64,000 bases of DNA from a virus (lineage: Duplodnaviria; Heunggongvirae; Uroviricota; Caudoviricetes): IMG/VR virus record IMGVR_UViG_3300029305_004380, positions 2,042 through 66,041 of that record; one strand, written 5' to 3'. A program made the position numbers and the translations under genes. Shown piece after piece: positions 12,526 to 63,971 of this stretch. The first letter of the stretch is position 1. Each line of letters starts with the position of its first letter. A model generated the notes under the pieces. It was not told where the DNA came from. It saw only the letters and a program-made list of their open reading frames with translations, and ran no database searches.

Positions 12526-12526
12526 T

Positions 12527-17097: not shown

Positions 17098-18258
17098 TTA
17101 AATTAATTTATCTACATGTTGAAATTCATCTAATGTAAATTCATAAACTTTATTTTGAGTATGATTTTGAAATACAACATCTTTATCACTTATTATATTA
17201 TAATCGTTTGTAAATGTGTTCATTATTTCTTTAGAAATCCATTCTATAAATTTAACCGGAACACCTTGAGCTAAACATTGAATTGTAGGAATTTTACATT
17301 CATTAGGATAAAATATAAAATCATCCGGATAGCCCATTATTCTAGCATATTCTCTTATATATAAATCTCTATTTTCTACAGGATGAATAAATTGAGCTAA
17401 ACTAGTCATTGAAGGAGCCACTCCGTCAAAATCAAGTCTATATGAAGATTTATCCCATAATCTTTCTCCATTATTTTTCTTTTCAATAAAAGATTTTACT
17501 TGTTTTTTATGTTCATTCGGAATTTTTTCAATGTCTAGATTATTTAAATTGTTGTATAATCCACACATTAAAGATTCATTATGTTTTACATATCTATAAA
17601 ATTCTTCCATATTTTTAATAGCTCTGTTATTATCAAATTCCATATTGGGTGTGTCAGGAGTTAAACCTTCAAATATTTCTTTTATTGTTGTTTTATTTTG
17701 TTTAACAAATTTTATTTCAGGTATTTTTTCATATTTATTTTTATTCCAACCTACAATCATAGTTCTTAATCTTCTCATACTTACACCATGATTTCCAGCC
17801 ATATCTCGTATGATTGTAAATTTATACTTTTCACCTAATATATTCACCATATCTTTTAAAATAGGTAATCCTAAAGTCACGACTGTTGGTGCATTTTCTA
17901 TTAAAAATGTATCAGGATTTAAATGATTTATAATATCAAATACTTCATAAAATCTATTATTTACTTTATTATCTACTTTTGCATTTTTATTTATAGAACT
18001 TAATCCAGAGCATGGATTATTTGAATATAATAAGTTATAATGTTTTTCTTTTAAAGTGTCTAAGAATGCATTTTGAGACCACTCTGATGGTCTCTTAATA
18101 TTTATATTAGGATAATTCTTACAAAAATGATACGCATTAGTATCTGTCATATCTTCAGTCATTTCTAAAACAGTATCTATTTTCCATCCTGTATTTAAAT
18201 GTCCTATGGTCTGACTCCCAGAAAATATATATGCACCTATAGCTGATAATTCATTCAT
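17098..18258 (-). CDS. divergent C5-cytosine methyltransferase-fold protein (386 aa)
   Basis: C5-MTase motif order is recognisable: motif I-like IFSGSQTIG (glycines replaced), motif II LEMTED, motif IV NPCSGLS (PCQ becomes PCS), motif VI FLIENAPTV (ENV), motif VIII RRLRTMIVGW and C-terminal motif X-like QGVPVKFI. Confidence 0.7.
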   Translation of the reverse strand: MNELSAIGAYIFSGSQTIGHLNTGWKIDTVLEMTEDMTDTNAYHFCKNYPNINIKRPSEWSQNAFLDTLKEKHYNLLYSNNPCSGLSSINKNAKVDNKVNNRFYEVFDIINHLNPDTFLIENAPTVVTLGLPILKDMVNILGEKYKFTIIRDMAGNHGVSMRRLRTMIVGWNKNKYEKIPEIKFVKQNKTTIKEIFEGLTPDTPNMEFDNNRAIKNMEEFYRYVKHNESLMCGLYNNLNNLDIEKIPNEHKKQVKSFIEKKNNGERLWDKSSYRLDFDGVAPSMTSLAQFIHPVENRDLYIREYARIMGYPDDFIFYPNECKIPTIQCLAQGVPVKFIEWISKEIMNTFTNDYNIISDKDVVFQNHTQNKVYEFTLDEFQHVDKLI

Positions 18259-21258: not shown

Positions 21259-21882
21259 TTATTTAAACCTCTTATCTTTTTGTTTACGCGATTTTAATAT
21301 ATATTTTTTATAATCATTATAATCTTTAAATTTGATATATTCACCAGAATAAACATCAAAACATGAATTATCTGCACATAATTCATATGAATTTGTTGAA
21401 CACACAATGAACACATCTTTATCCTTATTATGTTCATCTTCCATAATTGTTTTAAATAAATATTCTTTTATTTCAATAGCATTATCTATGCTTAAACCTG
21501 AATCTATAGCATCAAATAAAATCCATAATTCTTTACTATTTTTATGTTGCTGTACAAACCTTGCAATTTTGCCTGCTATAATACCAAGATTAATATATAT
21601 TTGTTCACCTTCAGATGATTGCATCAGTGTAGCTGCAGTAGTTATATCATCCTCATAAACTCTTTCAGATATTGATGTTGCTCCACCTTCATATTCATTA
21701 CTATAATATATTACTGGGATTTTAGATGATTGCAAAGACTCTTTAATTGATTGTAATAAAGTAGTTTTTCCAGATCCATTGCATCCTATTAAAATAGTAA
21801 CACCTGGATTTATTTCGATTTCTGATTTTTTATAAATGATATCATCGTATGGTTTTCTTGTAATTTTAAAAAATCTACTCAT
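21259..21882 (-). CDS. small ABC-type/SMC-like P-loop ATPase (207 aa)
   Basis: Walker A GCNGSGKTT, ABC-signature-like SEGEQ and Walker B ILFDAID motifs. Confidence 0.55.
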   Translation of the reverse strand: MSRFFKITRKPYDDIIYKKSEIEINPGVTILIGCNGSGKTTLLQSIKESLQSSKIPVIYYSNEYEGGATSISERVYEDDITTAATLMQSSEGEQIYINLGIIAGKIARFVQQHKNSKELWILFDAIDSGLSIDNAIEIKEYLFKTIMEDEHNKDKDVFIVCSTNSYELCADNSCFDVYSGEYIKFKDYNDYKKYILKSRKQKDKRFK

Positions 21883-23179: not shown

Positions 23180-24181
23180 TTACTTATTGAATTTAATAGC
23201 ATTTTCATTAAATAAAGTATTATCACATTCCACAAAATAGTCAAATAGTGGTAACGCTAACTCTCTCATTTGAGGATGAGCAGCTTTGTCACATCTTAAT
23301 TCAAAGAAATGTCCCCATTCATAATTATGAGCAGTCATTATAATTTCAGTTTTTAAACTGTTACCAAGTACACTTCTAGCTTCTTGAGGAGTAGCTCCTA
23401 ATTCTAATAACTCAAAGTATGCTTTTTCTGAAGCTTTTATTGCATCTCTCCAAACATGATACTTGTTTCTTTCAACACTTTGAAGTTCTGCTTCACCATC
23501 AAACATTAATGGGTCAATCACCGTGATATTATTATCAAATTTATCTTTAGAATAATTACAATATCTTGTAGATTCTTGAGCATATGAAGAATCCCTATGT
23601 CTAACGATTTCATGTGATACACCTCTATCACAAATAAATTTAATAGATTTCCATCCGTGCATCCATTGTTCTTCTGGAATTAATGTATTAATATCATCGA
23701 TTTTAGTCCAATTATTTCTATGTACTTTTTTAAATTTATTACCAAATAATTCATCACAATCATAATCTAAGACTATTTGCTCACATAATTCAATTAAATG
23801 TTCTTTCATATAACTATTAGTCTTATAAGCTTCTAATAAATCTAAAAGAGACCTTGCGCTAAACGACAATATATATCTTAATTTTGTTTCAAAATTACCT
23901 TCATCATTACATGAAATAATTTCTGTCGTACTAGATGTTATATATTTTTCATTACTTAATATTTTAAAAAATAAATTATTAGGAGTATTACATTGATATA
24001 CAAATATAAAATGTTCTAACATCGCCCAATGTTTTTTATCATATAAATTTTTAATCATTTTTTTATGACTTTCATCAGTTATTAAATCTTCTGATTTATA
24101 ACAAATTCTTGCAATTTTTTCAATATGTTTTTGAGGATTGTCATCATACATTTCTTTAAATGACGGCTTTATAATTTTCAT
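23180..24181 (-). CDS. thyX: flavin-dependent thymidylate synthase ThyX (333 aa)
   Basis: ThyX signature RHRDSSYAQESTRY (RHR-x6-QESTRY). A GGAG ribosome-binding site is present. Confidence 0.85.
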   Translation of the reverse strand: MKIIKPSFKEMYDDNPQKHIEKIARICYKSEDLITDESHKKMIKNLYDKKHWAMLEHFIFVYQCNTPNNLFFKILSNEKYITSSTTEIISCNDEGNFETKLRYILSFSARSLLDLLEAYKTNSYMKEHLIELCEQIVLDYDCDELFGNKFKKVHRNNWTKIDDINTLIPEEQWMHGWKSIKFICDRGVSHEIVRHRDSSYAQESTRYCNYSKDKFDNNITVIDPLMFDGEAELQSVERNKYHVWRDAIKASEKAYFELLELGATPQEARSVLGNSLKTEIIMTAHNYEWGHFFELRCDKAAHPQMRELALPLFDYFVECDNTLFNENAIKFNK

Positions 24182-36192: not shown

Positions 36193-36735
36193 TTATTTAC
36201 CTGAATTTCCAAATCCAGTATCTCCTCGATTGGTATTCATAATTTCTTCTTTTGTCAAACCAGTTTCTTTCATATAATCTTCTAGAGATACCCATTCAAT
36301 GCTGTAAGTTTTATAAATATCTAAACTGCACGGTCTTTCTCCTTTTTCAATGGTAATATCTTTGTCTGTCACATTGTACAAAAGAGCATTGATACAACCA
36401 CGATAATTCAAATCTACATGCGCAGGTCCCACTAATAAACCTTCAAGCCATCTACCACCTCTTGTTCTACATGCAATACCAAAACCTTCAGGAATAATAG
36501 TTCCAATACCAAGTGATACTTTAGCTGAACCATGAGCTGGAATCGTTACTGTTTCATGAGCATATGCATCATATCCAATATCACCTTCTTTATTTCTCTT
36601 AGGAAGCATTAATTCACCATCTCCTGAAAAATCAAGATATGGTACCTGTATTGTATTTTCAGTACAATTCATTGTTTCCATCATATGTTCCAATGTTGTT
36701 ATCCTATTTTCTAATTGTGCTAATACTTTATTCAT
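36193..36735 (-). CDS. dUTPase-family (trimeric dUTPase/dCTP-deaminase fold) enzyme with N-terminal coiled-coil extension (180 aa)
   Basis: dUTPase motifs: IGYDAYA (motif 1), RTRGG (motif 2-like) and GPAHVDLNYRG (motif 3, D...YRG). Confidence 0.65.
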   Translation of the reverse strand: MNKVLAQLENRITTLEHMMETMNCTENTIQVPYLDFSGDGELMLPKRNKEGDIGYDAYAHETVTIPAHGSAKVSLGIGTIIPEGFGIACRTRGGRWLEGLLVGPAHVDLNYRGCINALLYNVTDKDITIEKGERPCSLDIYKTYSIEWVSLEDYMKETGLTKEEIMNTNRGDTGFGNSGK

Positions 36736-36854: not shown

Positions 36855-38135
36855 TTACACGTTTATATAATTATTTTTAGCATCTTCTAATAATTGACCA
36901 TCTCTCCAAATATTAAAACAATGATTTTCAGTGAGATCAATAATATTCTTATTTTTAAATTGTTCTCTTACTTTTCTCCAATTTATACCTACATTATCTA
37001 AACCTCTTTGATGAATCCATTTAATATATTCTATATGACCAAAATTATTTTTCATTTCCTGTTGTTGCTGAGTAAATCTTTCTTGAATACTATCAAAATT
37101 CATAGTACCCATTGCAACTGAACTGTATGTCATCCATCTAAATTCACAATTTATAAGACCTGCTTCTAATCCTCTAATAAGTAAATCTAAATCATCATGT
37201 CCATTGCCTATAAGAGTTCTATAATTTAAACCAGACTCTTTAAGTCTCTTTAAATTTAAACAAACAGTTCCTGTAGGAAGTCCTGATAATAATCTCATTG
37301 ATTTTTCTACATTTATAAAATCAGGAACCCAACTAAATCCTTGCATCATACCTGTGGTAAACATCACATTATATTTTTTAGCAACATATTCCATACCAAT
37401 CTGCCACATTGCCATAGTTTTTCCAAAGTTTTGTGTAGTAACTCCTTGAGCTTTTGGTTCACCATTTGCTCTAAACCAAGGAACCGTATGACAAAAATTA
37501 GTAATATCATCGTCACACATAAATATAAAATCATATTTCTTAGAAAAAGCATTTACAATTTGTTCTCTAGTTTTTCCAATGTCATCTATTAATTCATCAG
37601 GAAATGCTTTTATATGTATATAATCATTATATTTTATATACTCTGATGCTTCATACAGTTCTTTTTGAGATTGTCTCACAATAATATAAATTGGATATTC
37701 ATAACCAGGAACAACTATGTCTTTAATCCATTTTACAAAACCACAATTAGGTCTATTATATGATGGAATTACTATAGGGAATAATCTATCCTTTACAATA
37801 TCATACGCTGCTTCATAAAGTTTGTTACTCCAACAATCAACTGCTAATAGCTCTTCAGTTGTAACTTTCGGAGCTTTAACTCTTGGAGTTTTTTCATATT
37901 TCATTTTTTTACCTTCAATATATTGCTCTAAAGATATATTTTTTTTATTTAATTCATCTTTTAATTTTATTACCTCCTCCCAACATTTTTTACACTTTTC
38001 ATCGACACAATCATTACATTCTTTATCACAATTTATAACCGCTTCAACATATGAACTCATGTTTGAAATATTTTTAGGACATTTAAATTCATTTGCTAAA
38101 ACATTTAATATTGTGTCAGTTTTTAATTTTGCCAT
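36855..38135 (-). CDS. putative glycosyltransferase (GT-A-like) with N-terminal Cys-rich zinc-binding region (426 aa)
   Basis: PIVIPSYNRP resembles the GT2 N-terminal strand motif. An acidic DDD (FMCDDDITNF) lies about 85 residues downstream, as a DxD motif would. N-terminal CxxC-x-CxxC cluster. This is a tentative fold assignment. Confidence 0.35.
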   Translation of the reverse strand: MAKLKTDTILNVLANEFKCPKNISNMSSYVEAVINCDKECNDCVDEKCKKCWEEVIKLKDELNKKNISLEQYIEGKKMKYEKTPRVKAPKVTTEELLAVDCWSNKLYEAAYDIVKDRLFPIVIPSYNRPNCGFVKWIKDIVVPGYEYPIYIIVRQSQKELYEASEYIKYNDYIHIKAFPDELIDDIGKTREQIVNAFSKKYDFIFMCDDDITNFCHTVPWFRANGEPKAQGVTTQNFGKTMAMWQIGMEYVAKKYNVMFTTGMMQGFSWVPDFINVEKSMRLLSGLPTGTVCLNLKRLKESGLNYRTLIGNGHDDLDLLIRGLEAGLINCEFRWMTYSSVAMGTMNFDSIQERFTQQQQEMKNNFGHIEYIKWIHQRGLDNVGINWRKVREQFKNKNIIDLTENHCFNIWRDGQLLEDAKNNYINV

Positions 38136-38151: not shown

Positions 38152-38874
38152 TTAATATCCCATTTTGTCTGTTAATGTTTCATCATTTATTATCCAATCA
38201 TTAACTTCTTTTATAATAAAATTATCATTAGGCCTTGCAAACACCACATATTTAATACCTGCATTAATGATTATTTTTTTACACATTTGACACGATTCTA
38301 AATTCTCTATAATATTTCCATCAATATCACTTCCATATAAATATAAAGTAGAATCAATCATTTTTTCTCTTTCAGCATTTATAATTGCATTCATTTCACT
38401 ATGAACACTTCTACATAATTCATATCTTTCTCCTCTTGGAATATTCATTTGTTCTCTTCTACAATATCCTAAATCGATACAATTCATAGTTAATCTGGGA
38501 GAGCCATTATATCCTGTAGAAATTATAGTGTCATTTTTAACAATAACAGAACCATATTTTTTCCTTAAACAGGTAGATCTAGTAGATACTTCTTTTGCAA
38601 TATTTAAATAATATACATGCTTAGAAGGTCTTTCACATGTTTTATCATTTAATTTGTTGTATTGTTCACTGCATTTATTGCAATAATGATGTTTTTCATA
38701 TACATTCCATCCAGATTCATTATATGCACCAACTAAAAGTTTAAAATTATTTATACCTTTAAAAATCATCTTTTTATCACATATATAACATTTAAAATTT
38801 ATGCAATTTTCATTTTTATATTTACTATCTAAATATTTTTTATTCAAACTATTTATTAAATCTATATTTTTCAT
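38152..38874 (-). CDS. dCMP deaminase with N-terminal zinc-finger extension (240 aa)
   Basis: Cytidine/dCMP deaminase zinc motifs HSEMNAI (H-x-E) and SCQMCKK (PCxxC-type) with correct spacing. Confidence 0.8.
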   Translation of the reverse strand: MKNIDLINSLNKKYLDSKYKNENCINFKCYICDKKMIFKGINNFKLLVGAYNESGWNVYEKHHYCNKCSEQYNKLNDKTCERPSKHVYYLNIAKEVSTRSTCLRKKYGSVIVKNDTIISTGYNGSPRLTMNCIDLGYCRREQMNIPRGERYELCRSVHSEMNAIINAEREKMIDSTLYLYGSDIDGNIIENLESCQMCKKIIINAGIKYVVFARPNDNFIIKEVNDWIINDETLTDKMGY

Positions 38875-41857: not shown

Positions 41858-43159
41858 TTAAAAATCAATATTTCTATCTTTAAGTGATTTTTTTATTAAA
41901 TATTTTCTATTAGATAATTGTTTAGGTGTTATATTTAATGTTCCACATATAGTATCAACATCATACGTATTACAATCGTTTAGAAATTGTTTTAATCCTT
42001 CTATGTCATCATATTTAATAGTTGGCTGCCAGTTCTTTGGTCTTTTACCTTTTTTCTTATTTTTATCAGAGACTAATAGTTTATCATTATTCATTTCATT
42101 TTTAGTGTCTACCTCTGGTTTATTTTTTTCGTTATCTATTAAATCTTTATAATTAATACCTTTTCTTTTTAAAAATGATTGTATTGCACTTTTTTTATCA
42201 TAAAGTTTTTGAATATTTTCTAAGTTGTATTTTTTCATACAAGATGCTTTACTCATACTATAATAATCTTTTATAAATTGTGTTGAAAATTCAATTGTAT
42301 ATCTTACCGTGTTTGCTTTTCTATTATCTTTTTTCTCAATATCTTCTTCTTTGATTGCTTCATTTGAAGATTTAATTGATTGTTCAAATATATTTTTCGC
42401 AGGAGTTAATGTATTTCCAATAGATTTGTATAAATATATTAAAGAATTTAAAATATCATCTAATTTTTTAGAATTAGCAACATATAAATCTTTTACTATT
42501 TTTAAATCCTCATGAAATGAAACGGTTGACTTATTTGTTTCATCTATCATTGATTTTAAGTTGGTTATATTATCATTTGTGGTTATAAACTTATTTTGTA
42601 TGTCTGTAAAAGAATTAATATAATTAACAGTGTCTCTACTATTCACATTGTTAACGTGTTCTTCATATTTAGTAAATTTATCTTCAATATATTTATCAAA
42701 CTTAGCAGTTTTTTGTTTGATAATTAAATTTAAAGTAGATTCCAGTTTATTTAAAAAATCAAGAGAAGATAATTCCCGTTCTGATATATTTAAATCAAAT
42801 TCTACAGCAAGGGCTATATCTATTTTTTTCATAACTAATTCAGATAATCTACCTATATATTCACCTAAATCATGTTTATTAATACACCTACATTGTTCTA
42901 ATAAAATTACTTGCGGTCTACCTTCAAATTCATAATAAACTTGATATGGTCCTACTGAAGATTTAGGTCTGGTGGTTATAGGAGCTATAGTTACTACATC
43001 ACCTTTTTTATTTCCTATATCATTTGATATAATAACTACTGGTCTTTTTTTACCTTCAATTCTATTAGGTTGTATATCTCCTAAATCATAATAATAAACA
43101 TTTCCTCTACTAAATACGTCCAACATTAATCTTTCTCCTTTGTATAACAATTTATCCAT
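41858..43159 (-). CDS. MazF/PemK/EndoA-family endoribonuclease domain fused to about 300 aa C-terminal extension (433 aa)
   Basis: Residues about 15-125 match the EndoA/MazF family closely: RGNVYYYDLG...GKKRPVVIISNDIGN...VAPIT...VILLEQCRCINK...KIDIALAVEF. The rest is coiled-coil, Lys-rich, with a possible C-terminal HTH. Confidence 0.7.
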   Translation of the reverse strand: MDKLLYKGERLMLDVFSRGNVYYYDLGDIQPNRIEGKKRPVVIISNDIGNKKGDVVTIAPITTRPKSSVGPYQVYYEFEGRPQVILLEQCRCINKHDLGEYIGRLSELVMKKIDIALAVEFDLNISERELSSLDFLNKLESTLNLIIKQKTAKFDKYIEDKFTKYEEHVNNVNSRDTVNYINSFTDIQNKFITTNDNITNLKSMIDETNKSTVSFHEDLKIVKDLYVANSKKLDDILNSLIYLYKSIGNTLTPAKNIFEQSIKSSNEAIKEEDIEKKDNRKANTVRYTIEFSTQFIKDYYSMSKASCMKKYNLENIQKLYDKKSAIQSFLKRKGINYKDLIDNEKNKPEVDTKNEMNNDKLLVSDKNKKKGKRPKNWQPTIKYDDIEGLKQFLNDCNTYDVDTICGTLNITPKQLSNRKYLIKKSLKDRNIDF

Positions 43160-49524: not shown

Positions 49525-50451
49525 TTAATGAATAAATTTACTAACATTCATGTTATTTAACATATATATTAGTTCTTCATTTTTTAATAGTTTATTATCC
49601 AAAATTTCATTTTTAGATTTATTACTTAAAATATCAAAATCATGCATTATTTCACTTAATATGTCTCTATAATTTCTATCATCATAATATTCAAAATAAT
49701 ATATATCTTCTTTTCCTTTTTTATATATTTCATTCATAGTTGTAATATATTTTTCATTATCTGTTATAAAATTTTCTTTATAACAATGCAAACTACCGAA
49801 TAGATGCGTATAAGTTCCCATTTCAACATTCAATTCTTTTGCCATCATCATTTGCCAAATAATAAATTGTGTCATATCATTAGGTAATCCGAACCAAATA
49901 TCACAACTTCTCATATACACAATACAATTTAATTTATTATCTCTAAGTAAAAATTGTATTGATGATGTACAAGGAGTATCATCATCTTGTCTATGCTTCA
50001 TTATAGGTATTTGCCAAATAGCTTGTCTAGAATATGGGTCTCTTTTTAATAATTCAACTGTTGCATCAAAAACTGTTAATTCTGGATTTTTATTATCTTT
50101 TTGAACAAATATATAATGTCCATAATTAGAATTAACAAGACCTTTTTCATCACCATCTTTATTAACTAAATCGTTCCAAATATTTGCAGGTGCATCTTTC
50201 ACATCTCTACTTCCATTTAAATACCACATGCATTCTTTTGCAAGATAAATAGGACTTAACTTTCTAATAGGTGACCACATTAAACAATTTTGTGGTTCCA
50301 ATATTCTAAACCCAATACCTACACTTTCATTAGTAACTCTACCACGAGCACATGAATTATAGAAATTATCAATAGAATGATCAACGTCGGTGTGTCCTAA
50401 TTCATCATATAATACACTCCAAGCTTCTACTGCAGTTTTAAAATTATACAT
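49525..50451 (-). CDS. ThyA-family pyrimidine C5-hydroxymethylase/methylase with dCMP-hydroxymethylase-type active site (308 aa)
   Basis: Whole-length ThyA-fold match (NSNYG, YMRSCDIWFG). The catalytic Cys is in PCT rather than PCH. The ThyA Asn177 position is Asp (LPNDMTQF versus ThyA LPFNIASY). That is the substitution that distinguishes dCMP hydroxymethylase from thymidylate synthase. Confidence 0.7.
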   Translation of the reverse strand: MYNFKTAVEAWSVLYDELGHTDVDHSIDNFYNSCARGRVTNESVGIGFRILEPQNCLMWSPIRKLSPIYLAKECMWYLNGSRDVKDAPANIWNDLVNKDGDEKGLVNSNYGHYIFVQKDNKNPELTVFDATVELLKRDPYSRQAIWQIPIMKHRQDDDTPCTSSIQFLLRDNKLNCIVYMRSCDIWFGLPNDMTQFIIWQMMMAKELNVEMGTYTHLFGSLHCYKENFITDNEKYITTMNEIYKKGKEDIYYFEYYDDRNYRDILSEIMHDFDILSNKSKNEILDNKLLKNEELIYMLNNMNVSKFIH

Positions 50452-56513: not shown

Positions 56514-57230
56514 TTAATATGCATATAATTCATACAGAAGATCTTTTATATCTTGTCGAATCAACGTGGTGCAATTATCTGTTGCTCTCATGCCTAAACA
56601 TTTATAAACAGCATTATATGTGAATTTTGTCATGCTATCCAGAATGCCTCTTTTTTCATCATCGAGTGAATTATAAAATTCATTATAAATGCTTCTTATC
56701 TTTGTAGATGGACCATCAAACTCTTTAATGTACCGCGTTGCGATAAGATATTTAACTTTATTATCAAAAATATCATCTAATAATTCTTCTAATGATATTC
56801 TTAATATAATACTGTCTGTTTCATTTAATTTATGAGAAGATGCTTTATATTCTATTTTTTGTTTTTCAGTGTTTAATGCTGAAGTATATCCTCTATCATG
56901 ACCGTTAAATATTTCAGTACTAAAATCATCAATATTTTCCATTTGTTTAGATACGTACATGCATTTTGCAAGTATTGCATTTTGTGCAACTCTTATTAAA
57001 TAAGAAAGTTCTAATTCATTTCCTCTTAGTTTATATTTATCAATCGCTTCATATATTTTAAGCCAAGCTTCTTGTTTTAAATCATCGACTTGAAAATACG
57101 GATTTGTTGCTACATATTTTAATGCTATATTATTTATAACTTGATTAAGCTTTCTATGCACCTCCTTATTATATACTCCATCTAATGTAATTAATACATT
57201 ATTTTTGTTTACTTTTGTAGTGGTTTCCAT
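56514..57230 (-). CDS. phage-encoded sigma-70-family sigma factor (238 aa)
   Basis: The region-2-like segment DDLKQEAWLKIYEAIDKYK...YLIRVAQNAI resembles sigma-70 region 2.1-2.4. Its position between the structural and replication modules is typical of a late or middle sigma factor. Confidence 0.55.
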   Translation of the reverse strand: METTTKVNKNNVLITLDGVYNKEVHRKLNQVINNIALKYVATNPYFQVDDLKQEAWLKIYEAIDKYKLRGNELELSYLIRVAQNAILAKCMYVSKQMENIDDFSTEIFNGHDRGYTSALNTEKQKIEYKASSHKLNETDSIILRISLEELLDDIFDNKVKYLIATRYIKEFDGPSTKIRSIYNEFYNSLDDEKRGILDSMTKFTYNAVYKCLGMRATDNCTTLIRQDIKDLLYELYAY

Positions 57231-57444: not shown

Positions 57445-60400
57445 TTATTGTGTCATAATCAATGCTAATACTTTATATTGATTATCTTCTTCAAAATATT
57501 TAGGTTCACATAATGCTTTTCCTATCATAGTACCCATTGTATTATAAACTGATTTAGTAGCTTTACCTTTTTCTATAGAAGATGTCAACATGTCTCCAGG
57601 TCTTATATTAGAATTTTCAACAACATTTACCCATACTTTTCCCACCACAGCAACTGTAAAATATTCATTTTGTAAATCAATAATATCTTGACTCTTATTA
57701 ATTCTATTACCACCTGCAAGAAATGCATATGAATTAGATTGAACACCTACTACTAATTTATTTTCAAATCCATCACAAATAGTATATTTACCTGTTTCAG
57801 GATTTAAAGCAATTAAAGTTCCAGGAGTAGCGATTTCTTCTATATTATCTTTTTCAAATGTTTCAGCAAAATCATTATATACTGCATTATAAACTCTACC
57901 ATGACAAATAGTAACACCTAAATGATTATTTGCATTTAATCCATCTCCTACTAGTGACGGATTATTTATATCTCCTGATATAGATAAACCTGCATTCTCT
58001 AATAAAAGAAAGTCTCTAATTTTATTTGTAGGATTATAATGAGTATATCCATTGTGGTCCATATATGTTTCAAATACTCCATTGTTATCTACATTTGAAT
58101 ATTTAGTAGCAAGTCCTTGATCCGAATTCATATTATCATGTACATATGATAAAACCACAGGTGGAGTATTTTCTAATGTTTCTGAATTTGTTTTTCCAAC
58201 AGAACCATTATATCTCCATATAATTTGATTAGCACGTTGATTTGCAACAGTAGTATTAAATTCTATATTATAAGTACTACCTAATTTTCTACCATCATTT
58301 TTATCATGTTCTTCATCATAAGAGCCACCATTTGTGACATCTTTATCATTATCATATCTAAATTTTGTAAATCTTACCCATTCTTTGTCATCAGTATATG
58401 CATTATATGAATCACTTATATCATCATTTGTAGATAATAAATCCGAACATCCAATATTACCGGCTGAAACGATACCTGCTATTTCTTTATAAGTAGGAAA
58501 TTCATGTCCACTTATAGGAGTAGACATTTTGTTAAATACCGAAATATTATCTACTGTTTGTTCCAAATAAGTATATATATCTTTAGACTTTAATAAAAGT
58601 TTATGATTAGTATTTAATTCAGCATTATTATTTATAAAATCATTCTCTTTTTCAGTACCAATTTGAATACTTTTTTCTACTATAGATTTACTAGTATAAA
58701 TTCCAGGCTGAACATTTATATAAGAAATTTTATTGTTATTATCTCCTTCATTTAAGATTTCAATAGTATTTAATTTAACATTTGATTCATTTCCTAATGA
58801 AGTAGATTTAATTCTTAAATTTCCTAAAGTCAAATATGGATCGGTATACCCACCAATTAAATTGTTATGATAGTTATGCCATGCATTTTTACCAATACCT
58901 AATGTAAAATGCAATGTATCATTTGTATTACCCAATTGTTGAGTACCTCTAGTTCCTGTTCTATGAGCTTCATATGCGTGATCAGCCATACTAATTACAT
59001 TATTATCTACTCTAAAATCTATGTTACGTCCATTTTTAGACGCTGAAAATAATTGTATACCTGAGCCATAATGAAATCCTTCAAATTCATCTTCATTGTC
59101 TATAAACTTAGTATTATCAGATACTTTATCATTATATGAATCTATAAATATTTCACCATTTTTAAAGTTAATAGATGATTTTCTATTACTATTATCAGAA
59201 TTTTCAATAATAAATTTAGAACTATTTACATTGTCTGTTTTCTCTTTATCATAAATCAATCCAGAATCATTTTCATTATAGTGCACCATACGAGTATAAT
59301 TTGATATATTATTATCTGTAACAGAATCACCACTATGAATTCTTAAGCCTGTATCTCCATATTTTTGTGATATAAGAGCTGCATGAATACCTGTATAACC
59401 GTAATTAAAATCTGTAGTATGTTTATATGTTCCAGGAACTATTGTCATTATAGTTCCACCAACATTATAATCAAAATTGTTATTTTTTACACTCGCATTA
59501 TTATCTCTTACTAAATCACCATATGTTCTTGGACTAATAAGAACACTATCTTGAAAATTATCATGTGTTCCATCTTTTATATAATCATATTCATCAAAAT
59601 ATTCTCTAAGTGCATCAATAGATAAATTATTAAATCTTAAAGCTCCAGTCATATAATCTCCATATTTAGAAACTAACCAATCAGGAATATGGCTTATATA
59701 ATCTTGTAAATCAGTTGTATGACTAGCAGGTTTTGTTCTTTGTCCTCTATTTAACTCAATCGGATTATGCGCAGTATCATAACTATACAAAGATGTATGA
59801 ATTTGACTCATATTATCTCTCAATGTATCATATTTTGTAGTTTTATGACCATAAACATCAATTTCAACTGAATCTCCAGAGTACTTATGATTTTTCAATG
59901 GATCTTGTTCAAACCCGTGATATATAATTCTATCTCCAAACTGCGTACCATCTCTAACAATAGAACCATTTTGAACCCAAGCTCTACCTAAAATCAATAT
60001 ATTATCATAATTGCATTCTAACTGACAATCATCAAACCATTTTAAATAAATACCTGATAATATTTCTGATTCACCTACATGAGCTTCTTTATTTACTACA
60101 TCACCTAATATATGATTACTAGCATCATATGAAATTGAAATTCCTAATGTATATTGTGATATAATACCAGAACTATAAGTACCATCATCATTCATTATTC
60201 TATTATCAGGAACTTTAATTTCAATGCTGTTTTTAGTTACAAATCTATACCCATTGATAACTGCTTCACCTGGTGAAATTGTAACAGCTGTTCTGTTTGC
60301 ATTAACTGCTAATGCAAAATGATTATATTTTAAAACAAAATTTTTATCAAATATATCTCTATAGATATTTCTTAGATTTTCTTCTGTGGTAAGTTTTCCT

Positions 60401-60555
60401 TCATCTAAAGCATTACTAGATGGGAATACTTGGGCATCTTTAGCAAAATAATAATATGAATCATCTCTTAATTCCCAATTTCCAAATTCCATTATTTCAC
60501 CCACTTTAAATAAATTTATTTTATATTTGTATTTTAAAAATAATAGGTAACTCAA
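57445..60555 (-). CDS. tail fibre / receptor-binding protein (up to 1036 aa; true start may be the internal MEFGNWE at about 60492)
   Basis: A very long Asn/Gly/Ser/Thr/Tyr-rich beta-structure-like sequence. The C-terminal approximately 150 aa (NDFAETFEK...LIALNPETGKY...) resembles intramolecular chaperone domains of phage fibres. It sits in a structural cluster. Confidence 0.6.
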   Translation of the reverse strand: MSYLLFLKYKYKINLFKVGEIMEFGNWELRDDSYYYFAKDAQVFPSSNALDEGKLTTEENLRNIYRDIFDKNFVLKYNHFALAVNANRTAVTISPGEAVINGYRFVTKNSIEIKVPDNRIMNDDGTYSSGIISQYTLGISISYDASNHILGDVVNKEAHVGESEILSGIYLKWFDDCQLECNYDNILILGRAWVQNGSIVRDGTQFGDRIIYHGFEQDPLKNHKYSGDSVEIDVYGHKTTKYDTLRDNMSQIHTSLYSYDTAHNPIELNRGQRTKPASHTTDLQDYISHIPDWLVSKYGDYMTGALRFNNLSIDALREYFDEYDYIKDGTHDNFQDSVLISPRTYGDLVRDNNASVKNNNFDYNVGGTIMTIVPGTYKHTTDFNYGYTGIHAALISQKYGDTGLRIHSGDSVTDNNISNYTRMVHYNENDSGLIYDKEKTDNVNSSKFIIENSDNSNRKSSINFKNGEIFIDSYNDKVSDNTKFIDNEDEFEGFHYGSGIQLFSASKNGRNIDFRVDNNVISMADHAYEAHRTGTRGTQQLGNTNDTLHFTLGIGKNAWHNYHNNLIGGYTDPYLTLGNLRIKSTSLGNESNVKLNTIEILNEGDNNNKISYINVQPGIYTSKSIVEKSIQIGTEKENDFINNNAELNTNHKLLLKSKDIYTYLEQTVDNISVFNKMSTPISGHEFPTYKEIAGIVSAGNIGCSDLLSTNDDISDSYNAYTDDKEWVRFTKFRYDNDKDVTNGGSYDEEHDKNDGRKLGSTYNIEFNTTVANQRANQIIWRYNGSVGKTNSETLENTPPVVLSYVHDNMNSDQGLATKYSNVDNNGVFETYMDHNGYTHYNPTNKIRDFLLLENAGLSISGDINNPSLVGDGLNANNHLGVTICHGRVYNAVYNDFAETFEKDNIEEIATPGTLIALNPETGKYTICDGFENKLVVGVQSNSYAFLAGGNRINKSQDIIDLQNEYFTVAVVGKVWVNVVENSNIRPGDMLTSSIEKGKATKSVYNTMGTMIGKALCEPKYFEEDNQYKVLALIMTQ

Positions 60556-61745: not shown

Positions 61746-63971
61746 TTATTTTCTATTATCATTTCTTATAAATTCAGGTCTTACAAAAAATTCATCGTTG
61801 TTAAAGTTAGCATAACGTGAATAAGTAAGCTTGTTGACTTTAAACATTATTTTTATTGATGTAGGAATTTTATTTAATTTAAATTGAACATGTCCTGTGC
61901 TATAATCTATACTTCCTTGTCCATTTAAAAGACCAGGTGTACCATTTATATTGCCTGAACCTGTATCTGCTAATATTTCTTCATCTCCATTAATGTATAT
62001 AAATAAACTATACGGTTTAATAGGATAAGCTTTAATAATATTACCTATTGAATCTTTAATAGGATTTCCATTAAAATCTTGTCCTAAGAAAAAATTAAAT
62101 TCAGTTTGATCATCATGAATATCATATAATTGTATATATTCACCTGTTATATCTTCTCTACATGCAGGTTCAAATATAAAACTATCATTTTCAACAATGG
62201 GTTCACCGTACATGTCTGATATAACTCCTGTATTTTCATCATATGATCTTCCTTTACTATACCAATATTCTCCTCTTTTTATGAATATTTCACCTGTTAA
62301 TCTATCAATTATTTCTCCTGTAGATTCATTATATATATTATCCACAATATCCCATACTTCTCTTATAACATTTAAATCTACATATTGTTTAATAACGTCA
62401 TCTGATAACTTTAATATATCATCATAAGATAGTTTTGGATCTAATTTACATAAATCGTCTATTTGTCTATATGATAATTTTAATTTTCTATGAGCATCAG
62501 AACCATCAGGCATATACATTCTTGAATCATATTCTATAGTATAATTAGTATCTTCTAATTCTCCTAATAAATTATATTTTTGTATTTTGAATTGTGCATC
62601 ATCTGTGTTTATAACATAACCAGTAAATACAGGTGTTAAACCCGTCCAATTATAAATTCTTTTATTGTATATTTCATATTCTCTTGGCTCATACACACCG
62701 AATAATCCAATAGTGTAATCCAATCCATCTTCTCTTATTATTCTATTACCTGCATTTTTTCCATATCCATCTCCACCAGGAGTTATATTATTATCATTTT
62801 CATTGTCATTTTCAACTTCAACTTTTATATTAGTAGTACTATTAGGCTTAAAAATAGGTTCTGATGAATTATCATATACATCTTTATATACATCTTCATA
62901 TTCAGATAATTTTTCTAATTCTACTGAAGTACATCCAAGAGATGTCATATAATATCCAGTATATTCATGATTTTCATTATAAATCATATATTTATTCTTA
63001 ATAACAAATCCTGTAGGATTTCCAAATATTGATCTTTTAATCCTTCTATATTGAACCGCAGATGTATTTAAATCTACATGCCAAATATTTTTATCTGTTT
63101 TCATTATGCATTCAATAACATCCATATAATTTACGGGTTCATTAAAATCTAATGTCTCACAATTAAATCGTTTTATCAGATTATCATTTATTCTATTCAT
63201 TAATGAATTATTATCTTCTATATTAATAGGCTTCCTTAAAAATATCTGTCCATTTATAGACCAATCTATCCAATCAACATAATTTTCTAAATATACATTA
63301 ATATTAGTAGGAATAGTCTTATATGATTGTAATTCACCTATGATATTTTCTTTAAATAATTCATCTTTATTTATTATGCCTACATCACTGAATGCATAAA
63401 TGTAATCACTGCCGTAATCATTATAATCATTTTTTCTAACAATATATAAATTAACCTGATTTTCAGTCATTTCATTTGCATAAGGATCAGTTTGTATATC
63501 TGTAGCTATAACATTAGCAACTGATTCAATTCTATTAACCGCTTTTTCAAAATCTCTCAATATGACTAAAGTGTCTATGGTATTTATGTAATTTTCTGCA
63601 TTTTTTCTAGCTTCTATACATGTTTCAGGATTACATCCATATGTAGAAGCTGTATTAAATAATGTTACATTTTCTAAAGCAGTAGATATATTTACATTTT
63701 CATCCATTACATAACATGATGATGAATCCATTTGAGTTAATACGTTTTCTTCAATTTCTCCATTTTTACCATCTGAAACTACAGCAAATATTTTAAATTT
63801 AGTAATAACGTACTTTGTATTCCAATATGTAGGTAATATAATAAAAGGTATTCCTGAAACATCTACATCTAACTCAAATACTTTATCCATAGTAGTTGAT
63901 AAATTTATATTTTCAACCAAAGTCCATTCATTATTAGCAAAAGGTGTTTCATCATTATCTACTAACATCAC
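61746..63971 (-). CDS. large tail/baseplate protein (741 aa)
   Basis: ORF track; Asn/Tyr/Gly-rich, adjacent to the fibre gene. Confidence 0.5.
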   Translation of the reverse strand: MMLVDNDETPFANNEWTLVENINLSTTMDKVFELDVDVSGIPFIILPTYWNTKYVITKFKIFAVVSDGKNGEIEENVLTQMDSSSCYVMDENVNISTALENVTLFNTASTYGCNPETCIEARKNAENYINTIDTLVILRDFEKAVNRIESVANVIATDIQTDPYANEMTENQVNLYIVRKNDYNDYGSDYIYAFSDVGIINKDELFKENIIGELQSYKTIPTNINVYLENYVDWIDWSINGQIFLRKPINIEDNNSLMNRINDNLIKRFNCETLDFNEPVNYMDVIECIMKTDKNIWHVDLNTSAVQYRRIKRSIFGNPTGFVIKNKYMIYNENHEYTGYYMTSLGCTSVELEKLSEYEDVYKDVYDNSSEPIFKPNSTTNIKVEVENDNENDNNITPGGDGYGKNAGNRIIREDGLDYTIGLFGVYEPREYEIYNKRIYNWTGLTPVFTGYVINTDDAQFKIQKYNLLGELEDTNYTIEYDSRMYMPDGSDAHRKLKLSYRQIDDLCKLDPKLSYDDILKLSDDVIKQYVDLNVIREVWDIVDNIYNESTGEIIDRLTGEIFIKRGEYWYSKGRSYDENTGVISDMYGEPIVENDSFIFEPACREDITGEYIQLYDIHDDQTEFNFFLGQDFNGNPIKDSIGNIIKAYPIKPYSLFIYINGDEEILADTGSGNINGTPGLLNGQGSIDYSTGHVQFKLNKIPTSIKIMFKVNKLTYSRYANFNNDEFFVRPEFIRNDNRK

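What the first reader, a model, noticed from the sequence alone, without database searches (positions are those of the whole stretch)
49525..50451. ThyA-fold enzyme with the dCMP-hydroxymethylase active-site signature, alongside a separate ThyX: candidate hydroxymethyl- or methyl-cytosine DNA in a Firmicute phage
The ThyA-family protein shows two substitutions that separate cytosine-specific hydroxymethylases from thymidylate synthases. The ThyA Asn177 position is Asp (LPNDMTQF versus ThyA LPFNIASY). The residue after the catalytic Cys is Thr (PCT) rather than the PCH seen in thymidylate synthases. From memory, the surrounding sequence (NSNYG, CTSSIQFLLRDNKLN, YMRSCDIWFG) appears closer to the T4 gp42 type than to bacterial ThyA. 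Thymidylate synthesis is already covered by ThyX (23180..24181). The window also encodes dCMP deaminase (38152..38874) and a dUTPase/dCTP-deaminase-fold enzyme (36193..36735). This is the enzyme set T-even phages use to exclude dCTP and build hmC DNA, and a glycosyltransferase-like gene sits next to the dUTPase. If correct, this would be a hydroxymethyl-pyrimidine genome in an AT-rich, spore-former-type phage. That is not the usual context for this chemistry.
Basis: partly seen in the sequence, partly recalled or inferred. Interest (0 to 1): 0.8.

Follow-up and report, generated by a model that had tools for sequence, protein, structure and literature searches.

The report
Phage dCMP hydroxymethylase with DNA glycosyltransferase
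A large, AT-rich, uncultured phage of Gram-positive (Bacillota-type) bacteria carries a thymidylate-synthase-like enzyme whose active site matches the enzymes that make 5-hydroxymethyl-dCMP, plus a DNA sugar-transferase, so it very probably replaces cytosine with sugar-decorated hydroxymethylcytosine as phage T4 does; this strategy is known, here seen in a new phage lineage.

Summary
ORF 49525..50451 (minus strand, 308 aa) is a ThyA-fold protein. In a 131-sequence alignment numbered on E. coli ThyA it has D143 / C146 / T147 / D169 / D177 with R126 / S167. T4 gp42 has the same residues.

Every other characterised class differs:
- ThyA: L143 / H147 / N177
- SPO1 dUMP hydroxymethylase: N177
- RB69 5-hydroxy-dCMP synthase: N169
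- PaMx74 5mC-type enzyme: N143 / P147
- MilA CMP hydroxymethylase: K126 / A167

All 35 orthologs keep the signature. A pLDDT 94.8 model matches MilA and T4 dCMP hydroxymethylase ahead of thymidylate synthases.

The context fits. ThyX, a dCMP deaminase, a dUTPase-fold gene and a GT-A glycosyltransferase of Pfam family TAGT (which includes the T2/T6 hmC glucosyltransferase) are present. The deaminase–GT block is conserved in relatives.

Caveats: the window has no dNMP kinase or T4-type dCTPase, an intact-looking C5 DNA methylase is present, phylogeny is unresolved, and there is no chemical evidence.

The novelty claim is overstated. Enterococcus phages VPE25/VFW (2016), MetaGPA (2021) and Pyle et al. 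(2023) already document this chemistry in Firmicute phages and metaviromes. Verdict: a new member of a known kind, of modest interest.

The parts
49525..50451 (-). Predicted dCMP hydroxymethylase (5-hydroxymethyl-dCMP synthase), ThyA fold, 308 aa. It has a MilA-like C-terminal helical extension after about residue 230.
   Evidence: PF00303 at 4.6e-24, far below all NCBIfam ThyA equivalog cutoffs. Signature D143/C146/T147/D169/D177 with R126/S167. AF2 model pLDDT 94.8. Foldseek ranks MilA (4e-20) above T4 dCH (4e-16) above ThyA (from 5e-14).
49876..49878 (-). Codon for Asp192, equivalent to E. coli ThyA Asn177. This is the cytosine-versus-uracil determinant.
   Evidence: Its role is established in the literature quoted.
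49966..49971 (-). Codons for the catalytic Cys161 (ThyA C146) and Thr162 (ThyA H147).
   Evidence: MetaGPA ranked positions 177 and 147 as the top two residues associated with C-modified phage DNA.
49978..49980 (-). Codon for Asp158, equivalent to ThyA Leu143. An acidic residue here correlates with a hydroxymethyl rather than a methyl product.
   Evidence: Rationale from NAR 2026.
49900..49902 (-). Codon for Asp184, equivalent to ThyA Asp169. It is retained, which argues against the flavin-dependent 5-hydroxy-dCMP synthase class (D169N).
36855..38135 (-). GT-A-fold DNA glycosyltransferase of the TAGT family (PF20691), 426 aa. It has a Cys-rich helical N-terminal extension of about 115 aa and a DXD motif (D208-D210).
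   Evidence: Pfam 31.8 bits against a 27.5 cutoff. phrog_842 beta-glucosyl-HMC-alpha-glucosyltransferase at 9.3e-10. Invariant DDD. AF2 pLDDT 90.3. BFVD top hits are TAGT proteins at 1.4e-16. PDB top hits are TarP, RmlT and TarS.
38152..38874 (-). dCMP deaminase, 240 aa, with an N-terminal CxxC...CxxC extension. It is predicted to supply dUMP for ThyX.
   Evidence: PF00383 at 9.8e-18. HSE and CQMC motifs. It is adjacent to the GT in the window and in relatives L012 and L094.
36193..36735 (-). Trimeric dUTPase-fold nucleotidohydrolase, 180 aa. It is a candidate dUTPase and possibly a dCTPase, but its specificity is unknown.
   Evidence: PF00692 at 2.2e-13. PDB dUTPases at 2.6e-15. 32% identical to the dUTPase homolog that lies between the ThyA-like gene and the beta-GT in Enterococcus phage VPE25. 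No similarity to T4 gp56.
23180..24181 (-). ThyX, the flavin-dependent thymidylate synthase. It is the genuine dTMP source.
   Evidence: PF02511 at 2.2e-36. RHRDSS motif.

Best explanation
The 308-aa protein is a folate-dependent dCMP hydroxymethylase, functionally equivalent to T4 gp42.

Inferred mechanism, by analogy with the T4 and MilA structures:
- Cys161 attacks C6 of dCMP.
- Asp192 reads and protonates the N3/N4 face of cytosine, where thymidylate synthases use Asn to read uracil.
- The methylene of CH2-THF is transferred to C5. Asp184, Trp and Gly keep the folate site intact.
- After THF is eliminated, water adds to the exocyclic methylene. Water is admitted because Asp158 replaces the hydrophobic Leu143 of ThyA. 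No hydride is transferred, so the products are 5-hydroxymethyl-dCMP and THF.
- Arg142 and Ser182 make the enzyme specific for deoxyribose.

Inferred pathway:
- hm-dCMP is phosphorylated by a kinase that was not found in this window (phage-encoded elsewhere, or host).
- The phage replisome incorporates it. The gene sits within the replication module.
- The TAGT-family GT-A glycosyltransferase at 36855..38135 then glycosylates hmC in DNA.
- dTMP is made separately: dCMP deaminase produces dUMP and ThyX converts it to dTMP.
- Both C1 enzymes regenerate THF, which fits with no DHFR being detected.

Shown here: the fold, every diagnostic residue, conservation across the family, and gene linkage. 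Inferred: the activity, the extent of C replacement, and the identity of the sugar.
For: Diagnostic residues. D143/C146/T147/D169/D177 and R126/S167 are identical to T4 gp42. They differ from each other validated class at that class's diagnostic position: E. coli ThyA, SPO1 gp29, RB69 gp48, the PaMx74 5mC-type enzyme and MilA. The meaning of each position comes from experimental papers.

Conservation. The signature is invariant in the 35 orthologs and in the 44-sequence family alignment.

Not a genuine ThyA. The best NCBIfam equivalog score is 79.6 bits against a cutoff of 327.

Solved relatives. By sequence the best is MilA at 3.6e-22. By fold the order is MilA, then T4 dCH, then ThyA, with the flavin dCMP monooxygenase 9iqc only at rank 43. 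The model has pLDDT 94.8.

Glycosyltransferase. It passes the PF20691 threshold, and that family contains the T2/T6 beta-glucosyl-HMC-alpha-glucosyltransferase. The GT-A fold and DXD motif are confirmed.

Linkage. The dCMP deaminase-GT block is conserved in two relatives. One has tandem GT paralogs and the other adds a sugar nucleotidyltransferase. The ThyA-like and GT orthologs share the 58.9 kb contig; P0029 and P0134 each report a longest contig of 258,185 bp, which suggests a second shared contig. Of 79 distant Asp-type homolog neighbourhoods, 12 carry a TAGT-like gene and 24 carry a deaminase.

T4-like layout. ThyX and the deaminase are both retained and no DHFR was found, unlike 5mC phages.
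Against: No enzymology and no DNA chemistry exists for this lineage.

No dNMP kinase and no T4 gp56-type dCTPase were found in the 64 kb window. The P-loop ORF at 21259..21882 is ABC/Rad50-like. However, the window covers only part of a genome of at least 114 kb.

A C5-cytosine DNA methyltransferase with intact PC and ENx motifs is encoded at 17098..18258. It would have no substrate if every C were hmC. That hints at incomplete replacement or a role on other DNA.

The phylogeny does not place the clade with any validated enzyme, and deep-node bootstraps are only 7-31%. The assignment therefore rests on a handful of diagnostic positions. The position 143 rule is described in the literature only as a correlation.
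Confidence: 0.77

Rival explanations
1. It is a dCMP methyltransferase of the XP12/PaMx74 type and makes 5-methyl-dCMP, so the phage DNA carries 5mC rather than 5hmC.
For: Asp at position 177 is shared with 5mC-type enzymes. A dCMP-deaminase-family gene is present, as in 5mC phages. The window also encodes a C5 DNA methylase, which shows that 5mC chemistry is used by this phage.
Against: Position 143 is Asp, as in all validated hydroxymethylases. PaMx74 has N143 and P147. 5mC phages make dTTP by deaminating 5m-dCTP and do not need a separate thymidylate synthase, and PaMx74 encodes a DHFR beside its ThyA homolog. This window keeps ThyX and has no DHFR. A conserved DNA glycosyltransferase needs a hydroxyl acceptor.
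Confidence: 0.07
2. It has a ThyA fold but makes a product outside the four known classes, and the glycosyltransferase decorates that product. Alternatively, the adjacent deaminase converts hm-dC nucleotides to hm-dU nucleotides.
For: The clade is deep-branching, and no characterised member lies inside its 100%-supported 16-member group. It has an extra C-terminal extension shared only with MilA. The 2026 discovery of 5hoC synthases shows that this fold still hides new chemistry. Some phage dCMP-deaminase homologs do deaminate 5hm-dC nucleotides.
Against: Every residue within reach of C5 that distinguishes the known classes matches T4 gp42 exactly. The folate-site residues are retained. ThyX provides dTMP, so hmU replacement of T is not needed.
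Confidence: 0.08
3. It is a flavin-dependent 5-hydroxy-dCMP synthase of the RB69 gp48 / DLP3 gp80 type, feeding an ether-linked glycosyl-5-hydroxycytosine.
For: It has Asp177, an acidic residue at 143 and an associated glycosyltransferase, which is the same overall layout as RB69 and DLP3. One relative has a sugar nucleotidyltransferase in the cassette.
Against: The diagnostic D169N change is absent. D184 is invariant across the family, as are W80 and G173, which RB69 gp48 has lost. The solved flavin enzyme 9iqc ranks only 43rd in the fold search.
Confidence: 0.03
4. It is a CMP hydroxymethylase of the MilA/BcmA type acting on ribonucleotides, with a role in a small molecule or RNA rather than in DNA.
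For: MilA is the top hit by both sequence and fold and shares the C-terminal extension. BcmA occurs in Clostridium.
Against: The two residues shown by mutagenesis to set ribose preference, K126' and A167, are R and S here, as in the deoxy-specific enzymes. The gene sits between RuvC-like and 5'-3' exonuclease genes in a phage replication module.
Confidence: 0.03
5. It is an ordinary thymidylate synthase, or a dUMP hydroxymethylase, that is simply redundant with ThyX.
For: Pfam and PHROGs label it 'thymidylate synthase'.
Against: N177D, H147T and L143D are all present and invariant. Scores are far below every ThyA equivalog cutoff. The dUMP hydroxymethylase SPO1 gp29 keeps N177.
Confidence: 0.02

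Closest known systems
Phage T4 gp42, dCMP hydroxymethylase (EC 2.1.2.8; PDB 1B5E, 6A9A), with the T-even hmC glucosylation pathway
   Same: ThyA fold. Identical residues at all class-diagnostic positions: D143, C146, T147, D169, N176, D177, R126, S167, H207 and Y209. It is encoded among replication genes. It is accompanied by a dCMP deaminase, a separate thymidylate synthase and a DNA glycosyltransferase.
   Different: Only about 26-28% identity, with no resolved phylogenetic link. It is about 60 residues longer, with a C-terminal helical extension. The partner thymidylate synthase is ThyX, not ThyA/td, and there is no DHFR. The GT is a solitary GT-A TAGT, not GT-B alpha/beta-GT. No gp56-type dCTPase or gp1-type kinase was seen in the window.
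MilA, CMP 5-hydroxymethylase of Streptomyces rimofaciens (PDB 5B6D, 5JNH)
   Same: It is the best solved relative by sequence (3.6e-22) and by fold (4e-20, about 304 aligned columns). It shares D143, T147, D177 and the C-terminal extension.
   Different: MilA has K126'/A167, which give ribose preference, and it works in antibiotic biosynthesis. The focal protein has R/S and a phage replication context.
ThyA-like + dUTPase + beta-glucosyltransferase clusters of Firmicute phages (Enterococcus phages VPE25/VFW; Lactobacillus phage ATCCB)
   Same: Gram-positive hosts. The same DCDD signature in the ThyA homolog. A dUTPase homolog 32% identical to the window's. VPE25 and VFW DNA resists bisulfite conversion.
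   Different: Those are 80-86 kb siphophages that use a T4-like GT-B beta-GT. Their ThyA homologs are about 33-35% identical to the focal protein. Here the GT is a GT-A TAGT and the phage is a much larger myovirus-type lineage.
Metavirome 'ThyS + GT-A' cytosine hypermodification clusters (Pyle et al. bioRxiv 2023; MetaGPA, Yang et al. eLife 2021)
   Same: Asp177/non-His147 ThyA homologs associated with C-modified contigs. JGT/TarP-like GT-A DNA glycosyltransferases co-occur with ThyA homologs. dCMP deaminase is frequently linked.
   Different: Those are catalogue-level descriptions. This specific clade and its AT-rich phage lineage, with contigs from 59 kb up to a reported 258 kb, were not characterised in any paper I could find.

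Membership tests
dCMP hydroxymethylase (T4 gp42 type, 5hm-dCMP synthase) | ThyA fold with a catalytic Cys at the position of E. coli C146 | tested here: met
   PF00303 at 4.6e-24. C161 aligns to C146. AF2 and Foldseek results.
dCMP hydroxymethylase (T4 gp42 type, 5hm-dCMP synthase) | Asp instead of Asn at position 177 (cytosine specificity) | tested here: met
   D192, invariant in the family.
dCMP hydroxymethylase (T4 gp42 type, 5hm-dCMP synthase) | Acidic residue at position 143, giving water access and a hydroxymethyl rather than methyl product | tested here: met
   D158, invariant. T4, MilA and SPO1 all have D. ThyA has L and PaMx74 has N.
dCMP hydroxymethylase (T4 gp42 type, 5hm-dCMP synthase) | Folate-site Asp169 retained | tested here: met
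   D184, invariant.
dCMP hydroxymethylase (T4 gp42 type, 5hm-dCMP synthase) | Deoxyribose-specific Arg126' and Ser167 | tested here: met
   R142 and S182. Rule from MilA mutagenesis.
dCMP hydroxymethylase (T4 gp42 type, 5hm-dCMP synthase) | Monophyly with an experimentally validated dCMP hydroxymethylase | tested here: inconclusive
   NJ tree. The focal clade is well supported, but deep nodes have only 7-31% bootstrap and no validated enzyme lies inside its clade.
dCMP hydroxymethylase (T4 gp42 type, 5hm-dCMP synthase) | Catalyses dCMP + CH2-THF + H2O -> 5hm-dCMP + THF | not testable with these tools
   Needs an enzyme assay or in vivo LC-MS.
Thymidylate synthase ThyA (EC 2.1.1.45) | Asn177, His147 and Leu143, and a score above the NCBIfam equivalog cutoffs | tested here: not met
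   The residues are D, T and D. The best equivalog score is 79.6 bits against a 327-bit cutoff.
5-hydroxy-dCMP synthase (RB69 gp48 / DLP3 gp80, flavin-dependent) | D169N substitution | tested here: not met
   D184 is retained, whereas the RB69 gp48 control shows N.
dCMP methyltransferase (XP12 / PaMx74 type, 5m-dCMP) | Asp177 with a non-acidic residue at 143; a reductive reaction, typically with DHFR nearby and no separate thymidylate synthase | tested here: not met
   Focal has D143/T147 against PaMx74's N143/P147. ThyX is present and no DHFR was found. Only one 5mC-type control sequence was available.
CMP hydroxymethylase (MilA / BcmA) | Lys126' and Ala167 (ribose preference) | tested here: not met
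   The residues are R and S.
dUMP hydroxymethylase (SPO1 gp29) | Asn177 with an acidic residue at 143 | tested here: not met
   Focal has D177; the SPO1 control has N177.
TAGT DNA glycosyltransferase (Pfam PF20691; includes T2/T6 beta-glucosyl-HMC-alpha-glucosyltransferase), for ORF 36855..38135 | Passes the Pfam gathering threshold | tested here: met
   31.8 bits against 27.5. phrog_842 at 9.3e-10.
TAGT DNA glycosyltransferase (Pfam PF20691; includes T2/T6 beta-glucosyl-HMC-alpha-glucosyltransferase), for ORF 36855..38135 | GT-A fold with an R...DDD active-site motif | tested here: met
   Invariant R154 and D208-D210. pLDDT 90.3 model. BFVD TAGT hits at 1.4e-16 with TM 0.85. TarP and RmlT are top in the PDB, as reported for phage GT-A DNA GTs.
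TAGT DNA glycosyltransferase (Pfam PF20691; includes T2/T6 beta-glucosyl-HMC-alpha-glucosyltransferase), for ORF 36855..38135 | Transfers a sugar to 5hmC (or glucosyl-5hmC) in DNA | not testable with these tools
   Needs an in vitro assay on T4 gt- DNA or in vivo reconstitution.

The most novel reading that the evidence does not exclude
The lineage makes a cytosine hypermodification that has not been described. One possibility is 5hmC carrying a non-glucose or branched glycan. Features pointing that way are the N-terminally extended TAGT enzyme, the tandem TAGT paralogs in one relative and the dedicated sugar nucleotidyltransferase in another. A second possibility is a mixed 5mC/5hmC genome in which the intact C5 DNA methylase and the pre-replicative hydroxymethylase both contribute. 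Either way it would be in a group of uncultured, AT-rich, jumbo-sized Bacillota phages.
Probability: 0.2. Interest if true: 0.5.

Novelty: new member of a known kind. Interest (0 to 1): 0.3.

Why it matters
If confirmed, it extends T4-style pre-replicative hmC synthesis plus DNA glycosylation to a deep-branching, uncultured lineage of large AT-rich phages of Gram-positive bacteria. In this version ThyX replaces ThyA/DHFR and a solitary GT-A (TAGT) transferase replaces the GT-B alpha/beta-GTs.

On the practical side, such DNA resists many restriction enzymes, and possibly Cas nucleases. It biases bisulfite- and enzyme-based sequencing and is under-recovered in some library preparations. The enzymes could also be mined as tools: a divergent hydroxymethylase and a DNA glycosyltransferase of unknown sugar specificity.

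The window is also a clean worked example of the four-position code (143/147/169/177, plus 126/167) that now separates six product classes of ThyA homologs. That code could correct database annotations. For example, Agathobaculum phage AB434P2's 'deoxyuridylate hydroxymethyltransferase' has Asp177.

The principle itself is already established, so the finding is incremental.

Tried and rejected
- **Close phage relatives by DNA:** none in 50,697 GenBank phage records.
- **Retrieving the source contig:** the identical protein is listed from a 114,610 bp JGI contig, but its gene position is not on record. The single metagenome scan returned only a 58%-identical relative, L096. Its extra 10 kb holds baseplate gp25 and cell-wall hydrolases, with no nucleotide-metabolism genes.
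- **P-loop ORF 21259..21882 as the hm-dCMP kinase:** rejected. Only the P-loop matches Thymidylate_kin, and the PDB hits are ABC/Rad50 ATPases.
- **dUTPase-fold ORF as a T4 gp56 homolog:** rejected, with no similarity. Its dCTPase activity remains untestable.
- **TET/JBP + C5-MTase + TAGT post-replicative route as the source of 5hmC:** no TET/JBP domain was found in any ORF scanned, which covers all ORFs of at least 140 aa except one of 144 aa. The MTase is 19 kb from the GT, while the GT is glued to the deaminase.
- **Phylogeny to assign the class:** unresolved.
- **C5-MTase conservation in relatives:** an IMG/VR close-relative scan and local tblastn found nothing. The fetched loci do not cover the syntenic region, so this is inconclusive.
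- **XP12 enzyme as the 5mC control:** I could not find an accession. PaMx74 was used instead.
- **Literature search for this lineage or for DUF488 links:** nothing specific.
Full report
**1. What is there.**
The window is uniformly AT-rich (GC 23-27%). It is almost entirely coded on the minus strand: 89 of the 91 ORFs of at least 60 aa, covering 89% of the sequence. The flagged ORF is real: 49525..50451, minus strand, 308 aa, ATG start, preceded by an AAAGGAG Shine-Dalgarno sequence.
- It hits Pfam Thymidylat_synt at 4.6e-24 and PHROG 'thymidylate synthase' families.
- Against NCBIfam's ThyA equivalog models it scores at most 79.6 bits, where the cutoff is 327. It has the ThyA fold but is not a bona fide thymidylate synthase.

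**2. The two flagged substitutions are correctly aligned.**
HMMER alignments to solved structures put query PCTSSIQF opposite ThyA PCHAMFQF, T4 gp42 MCTNTVQY and MilA ACTLALQF. They put query GLPNDMTQF opposite ThyA GVPFNIASY, T4 GFRNDYAWQ and MilA GAVSDVFSF. The best solved relative by sequence is MilA, the CMP 5-hydroxymethylase (3.6e-22). A bacterial ThyA follows at 2e-17 and T4 dCMP hydroxymethylase at 1.3e-15.

**3. What those positions mean, from the literature.**
- MetaGPA (Yang et al., eLife 2021, PMC8670742) found that positions 177 and 147 are the two residues most associated with cytosine-modified phage contigs.
- Lee et al. (NAR 2026, PMC13326640) summarise and extend the code. C146 is catalytic. 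N177D gives dCMP as substrate. L143 to D/E correlates with hydroxymethyl rather than methyl products. D169N marks a newly found class of flavin/O2-dependent 5-hydroxy-dCMP synthases (RB69 gp48, DLP3 gp80, RL38JI).
- Zhao et al. (Sci Rep 2016, PMC5175136) showed by mutagenesis that K126'/A167 give MilA and BcmA their ribose preference, whereas deoxy-specific enzymes have R and S.

**4. Rigorous test.**
I fetched validated references from annotated records: T4 gp42, RB69 gp48, SPO1 gp29 and the ThyA homolog of the 5mC phage PaMx74. I also took predicted enzymes from Enterococcus VPE25, Lactobacillus ATCCB, and Agathobaculum, Bacteroides and Acinetobacter phages. MilA was included as a partial sequence taken. 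The E. coli ThyA sequence I recalled reproduced all 17 published residue numbers I checked.

| Enzyme | 143 / 146 / 147 / 169 / 177 | Other |
|---|---|---|
| Focal protein | D / C / T / D / D | R126, S167; E58, W80, Y94, R166, G173, H207, Y209 intact |
| T4 gp42 | identical to the focal protein | identical at all listed positions |
| E. coli ThyA | L / C / H / D / N | |
| SPO1 gp29 | D / C / N / D / N | |
| RB69 gp48 | E / C / T / N / D | |
| PaMx74 | N / C / P / D / D | |
| MilA | D / C / T / D / D | K126, A167 |

These values come from MAFFT L-INS-i alignments of 131 and 21 sequences. The focal protein therefore matches only the 5hm-dCMP class. The D143/C146/D169/D177 signature is shared by the focal protein, all 35 orthologs (55-71% identity) and 127 of the 131 aligned sequences. 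D158, C161, D184 and D192 are invariant in a 44-sequence alignment.

**5. Structure.**
An AlphaFold2 model built on that alignment is very confident (mean pLDDT 94.8, pTM 0.93). Foldseek against the PDB gives this order:
- seven MilA chains first (4e-20 to 2e-18, about 302-308 aligned columns, so the C-terminal helical extension is shared with MilA);
- T4 dCMP hydroxymethylase next (4e-16 to 6e-15);
- thymidylate synthases after that (5e-14 and weaker);
- the flavin-dependent dCMP monooxygenase 9iqc only at rank 43.

**6. Phylogeny is not decisive.**
In a bootstrapped NJ tree the focal orthologs form a 100% clade inside a 100% 16-member clade composed only of uncharacterised metagenomic proteins. 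The deeper nodes that would link it to T4, MilA, SPO1 or the Firmicute-phage enzymes have 7-31% support. The protein is therefore not specifically 'T4-like' in descent. The assignment rests on the active-site code and the fold ranking.

**7. Companion genes.**
- **ThyX (23180..24181).** PF02511 at 2.2e-36, RHRDSS motif.
- **dCMP deaminase (38152..38874).** PF00383 at 9.8e-18, HSE and CQMC zinc motifs, and an N-terminal CxxC...CxxC extension.
- **Trimeric dUTPase-fold ORF (36193..36735).** PF00692 at 2.2e-13, PDB dUTPases at 2.6e-15, motif V present.
- **Glycosyltransferase (36855..38135, 426 aa).** It passes Pfam's threshold for PF20691 TAGT (31.8 against 27.5 bits) and hits phrog_842 'beta-glucosyl-HMC-alpha-glucosyltransferase' at 9.3e-10. 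PF20691 contains the T2/T6 enzyme that extends glucosyl-hmC. It has the GT-A fold, and solitary TAGT homologs occur in 288 of 753 GT-encoding phage genomes (PMC13216743). The GT family here has invariant R154 and D208-D209-D210. Its model (pLDDT 90.3) matches TAGT-domain phage proteins (1.4e-16, TM 0.85) and a Klebsiella phage beta-glucosyl-HMC-alpha-glucosyltransferase in BFVD. In the PDB it matches TarP, RmlT and TarS, the pattern Pyle et al. describe for phage GT-A DNA glycosyltransferases.

**8. Linkage in relatives.**
The ThyA-like gene sits in a conserved replication module (NAD ligase, RuvC-like, ThyA-like, 5'-3' exonuclease, helicase, primase) on related contigs of 58.9 and 184 kb.
- The 58.9 kb contig also carries SbcCD, dCMP deaminase (54% identity) and two tandem TAGT paralogs (39% and 44%).
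- A 224 kb contig has SbcCD, deaminase, GT (62%), a 138-aa ORF, a 567-aa sugar nucleotidyltransferase (PF00483) and a dUTPase.
- The ThyA-like ortholog P0029 and the GT ortholog P0134 each report a longest contig of 258,185 bp, which suggests they also share that contig.
- Across 79 IMG/VR neighbourhoods of more distant Asp-type homologs, 12 contain a TAGT-like gene, 15 contain a match to at least one of four GT queries, and 24 contain a deaminase.

**9. Why hmC rather than 5mC, beyond position 143.**
In 5mC phages the deaminase homolog makes dTTP from 5m-dCTP, which removes the need for a second thymidylate synthase (bioRxiv 10.1101/2024.12.05.627091). PaMx74's ThyA homolog sits next to a DHFR, as expected for a reductive methylation. 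This window keeps ThyX, and no DHFR was detected by Pfam or six-frame search. Both a hydroxymethylase and ThyX return THF rather than DHF. A conserved DNA glycosyltransferase also needs a hydroxyl acceptor.

**10. What is missing or awkward.**
- **No dNMP kinase.** The P-loop ORF at 21259..21882 is ABC/Rad50-like. RB69 thymidylate kinase finds nothing in the window.
- **No T4-type dCTPase.** gp56 has no similarity to the dUTPase-fold ORF and no six-frame match.
- **No TET/JBP**.
- **Limited coverage.** The window is only part of a genome of at least 114 kb. Ten kb beyond its end, in the relative L096, is baseplate and lysin territory.
- **A C5 DNA methyltransferase.** The ORF at 17098..18258 has intact motif IV (PC) and motif VI (ENA). 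It would be pointless on fully hmC DNA. I could not determine whether it is conserved in relatives.

**11. Host and novelty.**
No GenBank phage is close at the DNA level. The nearest RecA is from Clostridium sporogenes phages (40%). The nearest helicases are from Bacillus SP-15, Streptococcus and Listeria myophages (32-35%). The lysins are of Gram-positive type (glucosaminidase in the window, Amidase_2-SH3 in the relative), and the RBS is a strong GGAG type. 'Firmicute phage' is therefore supported.

The chemistry is not new to that host range.
- Enterococcus phages VPE25 and VFW have bisulfite-resistant cytosines and a T4-like beta-GT (Duerkop et al. 2016). Their ThyA homolog, dUTPase and beta-GT are adjacent.
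- Lactobacillus phage ATCCB has a ThyA homolog next to a beta-GT. Both carry the same DCDD signature.
- MetaGPA and Pyle et al. already show that Asp177 homologs, and their pairing with GT-A transferases, are common in metaviromes. IMG/VR alone returned at least 576 relatives.

**12. Verdict.**
It is refined by rejecting the 5mC, 5hoC, CMP and dUMP alternatives. It is a new, deep-branching member of a known kind, in an uncultured lineage of large AT-rich Bacillota phages. Interest is modest (0.3). The residual novelty lies in the unknown sugar, the solitary extended TAGT, and the coexisting C5 methylase.

Noticed in passing
window 17098-18258 (-): A C5-cytosine DNA methyltransferase (PF00145 at 3e-26) with intact PC (motif IV) and ENA (motif VI) motifs but a divergent motif I (FSGSQ). 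It would have no substrate on fully hmC DNA, so it suggests incomplete replacement or action on other DNA.
   Followed up: partly
window 41858-43159 (-); also L012 2959-4305, L002 18245-19285, L094 5110-6321: A 433-aa protein with an N-terminal PemK/MazF toxin domain (3.2e-20) plus a long C-terminal region. It is conserved immediately upstream of SbcD-SbcC in all relatives examined, which is an unusual fixed position for a toxin-type RNase domain in a lytic-looking phage.
   Followed up: no
window 30634-31005 (-); L001 9542-9916: A DUF488-N3a protein ('active DUF488-N3 subclade'). Its 52%-identical ortholog in the relative contig lies directly upstream of the ThyA-like gene, next to a nucleoside 2-deoxyribosyltransferase-like gene (PF15891). 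It may be an additional nucleotide-metabolism partner. A literature search found nothing.
   Followed up: partly
window 15138-15659 and 18677-19219 (-); L002 13538-14227: Two paralogous DUF5662 proteins (1.6e-31 and 3.7e-35). In a relative, a DUF5662 gene is inserted between the helicase and the primase. The function is unknown.
   Followed up: no
window 36855-38135 (-), residues 1-115; L012 8984-11077; L094 11773-13476: The window's TAGT has a Cys-rich helical N-terminal extension of about 115 aa that is absent from the roughly 340-aa relatives. One relative has two tandem TAGT paralogs. Another has a 567-aa NTP_transferase (sugar nucleotidyltransferase) in the cassette. This points to lineage-specific variation in the DNA glycan.
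   Followed up: partly
window 38152-38874 (-), residues ~25-70: The dCMP deaminase carries an N-terminal extension with CxxC...CxxC (a zinc-ribbon-like arrangement) ahead of the catalytic domain.
   Followed up: no
window 57445-60555 (-) and 61746-63971 (-); L096 9380-17169: Two very large ORFs (1036 aa and 741 aa) have no Pfam or PHROG match. The second is probably cut by the window edge, because its ortholog is 948 aa. In the relative they sit next to baseplate gp25 and cell-wall hydrolases, so they are probably tail or baseplate proteins.
   Followed up: partly
window 11272-12570 (-); L001 10-1092 and 3063-3617: An RtcB RNA ligase (7.2e-56) in the window. The relative also encodes an RNA ligase and a Tpt1-like 2'-phosphotransferase (PF01885). 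This looks like an RNA/tRNA repair toolkit, presumably a counter to host anticodon nucleases.
   Followed up: no
window 35098-35186 and 35360-35433 (-): Two tRNA genes, tRNA-Leu(UAA) and tRNA-Gln(UUG). Both decode A-ending codons, which fits the 25% GC genome.
   Followed up: no
window 31209-32786 (-) and 56514-57230 (-): A 525-aa SPFH/Band_7 protein (8.4e-23), and a sigma-70 region-2-only protein (5.1e-07) that is likely a phage sigma factor.
   Followed up: no
L009 2959-3621 (Agathobaculum phage AB434P2, OP172633.1): The gene annotated 'deoxyuridylate hydroxymethyltransferase' has Asp at position 177 and the full DCDD signature. It is more likely a dCMP hydroxymethylase, so the annotation is probably wrong.
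   Followed up: partly
L010 109-915 and 2989-3669 (Bacteroides phage BF503P2, OP172671.1): This phage has two ThyA-like paralogs, both annotated as dCMP hydroxymethyltransferase. Copy 'a' lacks the otherwise conserved E58, W80 and G173 (it has L, Y and L), which suggests a diverged or different activity.
   Followed up: no
P0085 (492 aa): A natural fusion of a thymidylate-kinase domain (PF02223) with an Asp-type ThyA-like domain. It supports kinase-hydroxymethylase coupling in distant relatives, although no kinase was found in this window.
   Followed up: no
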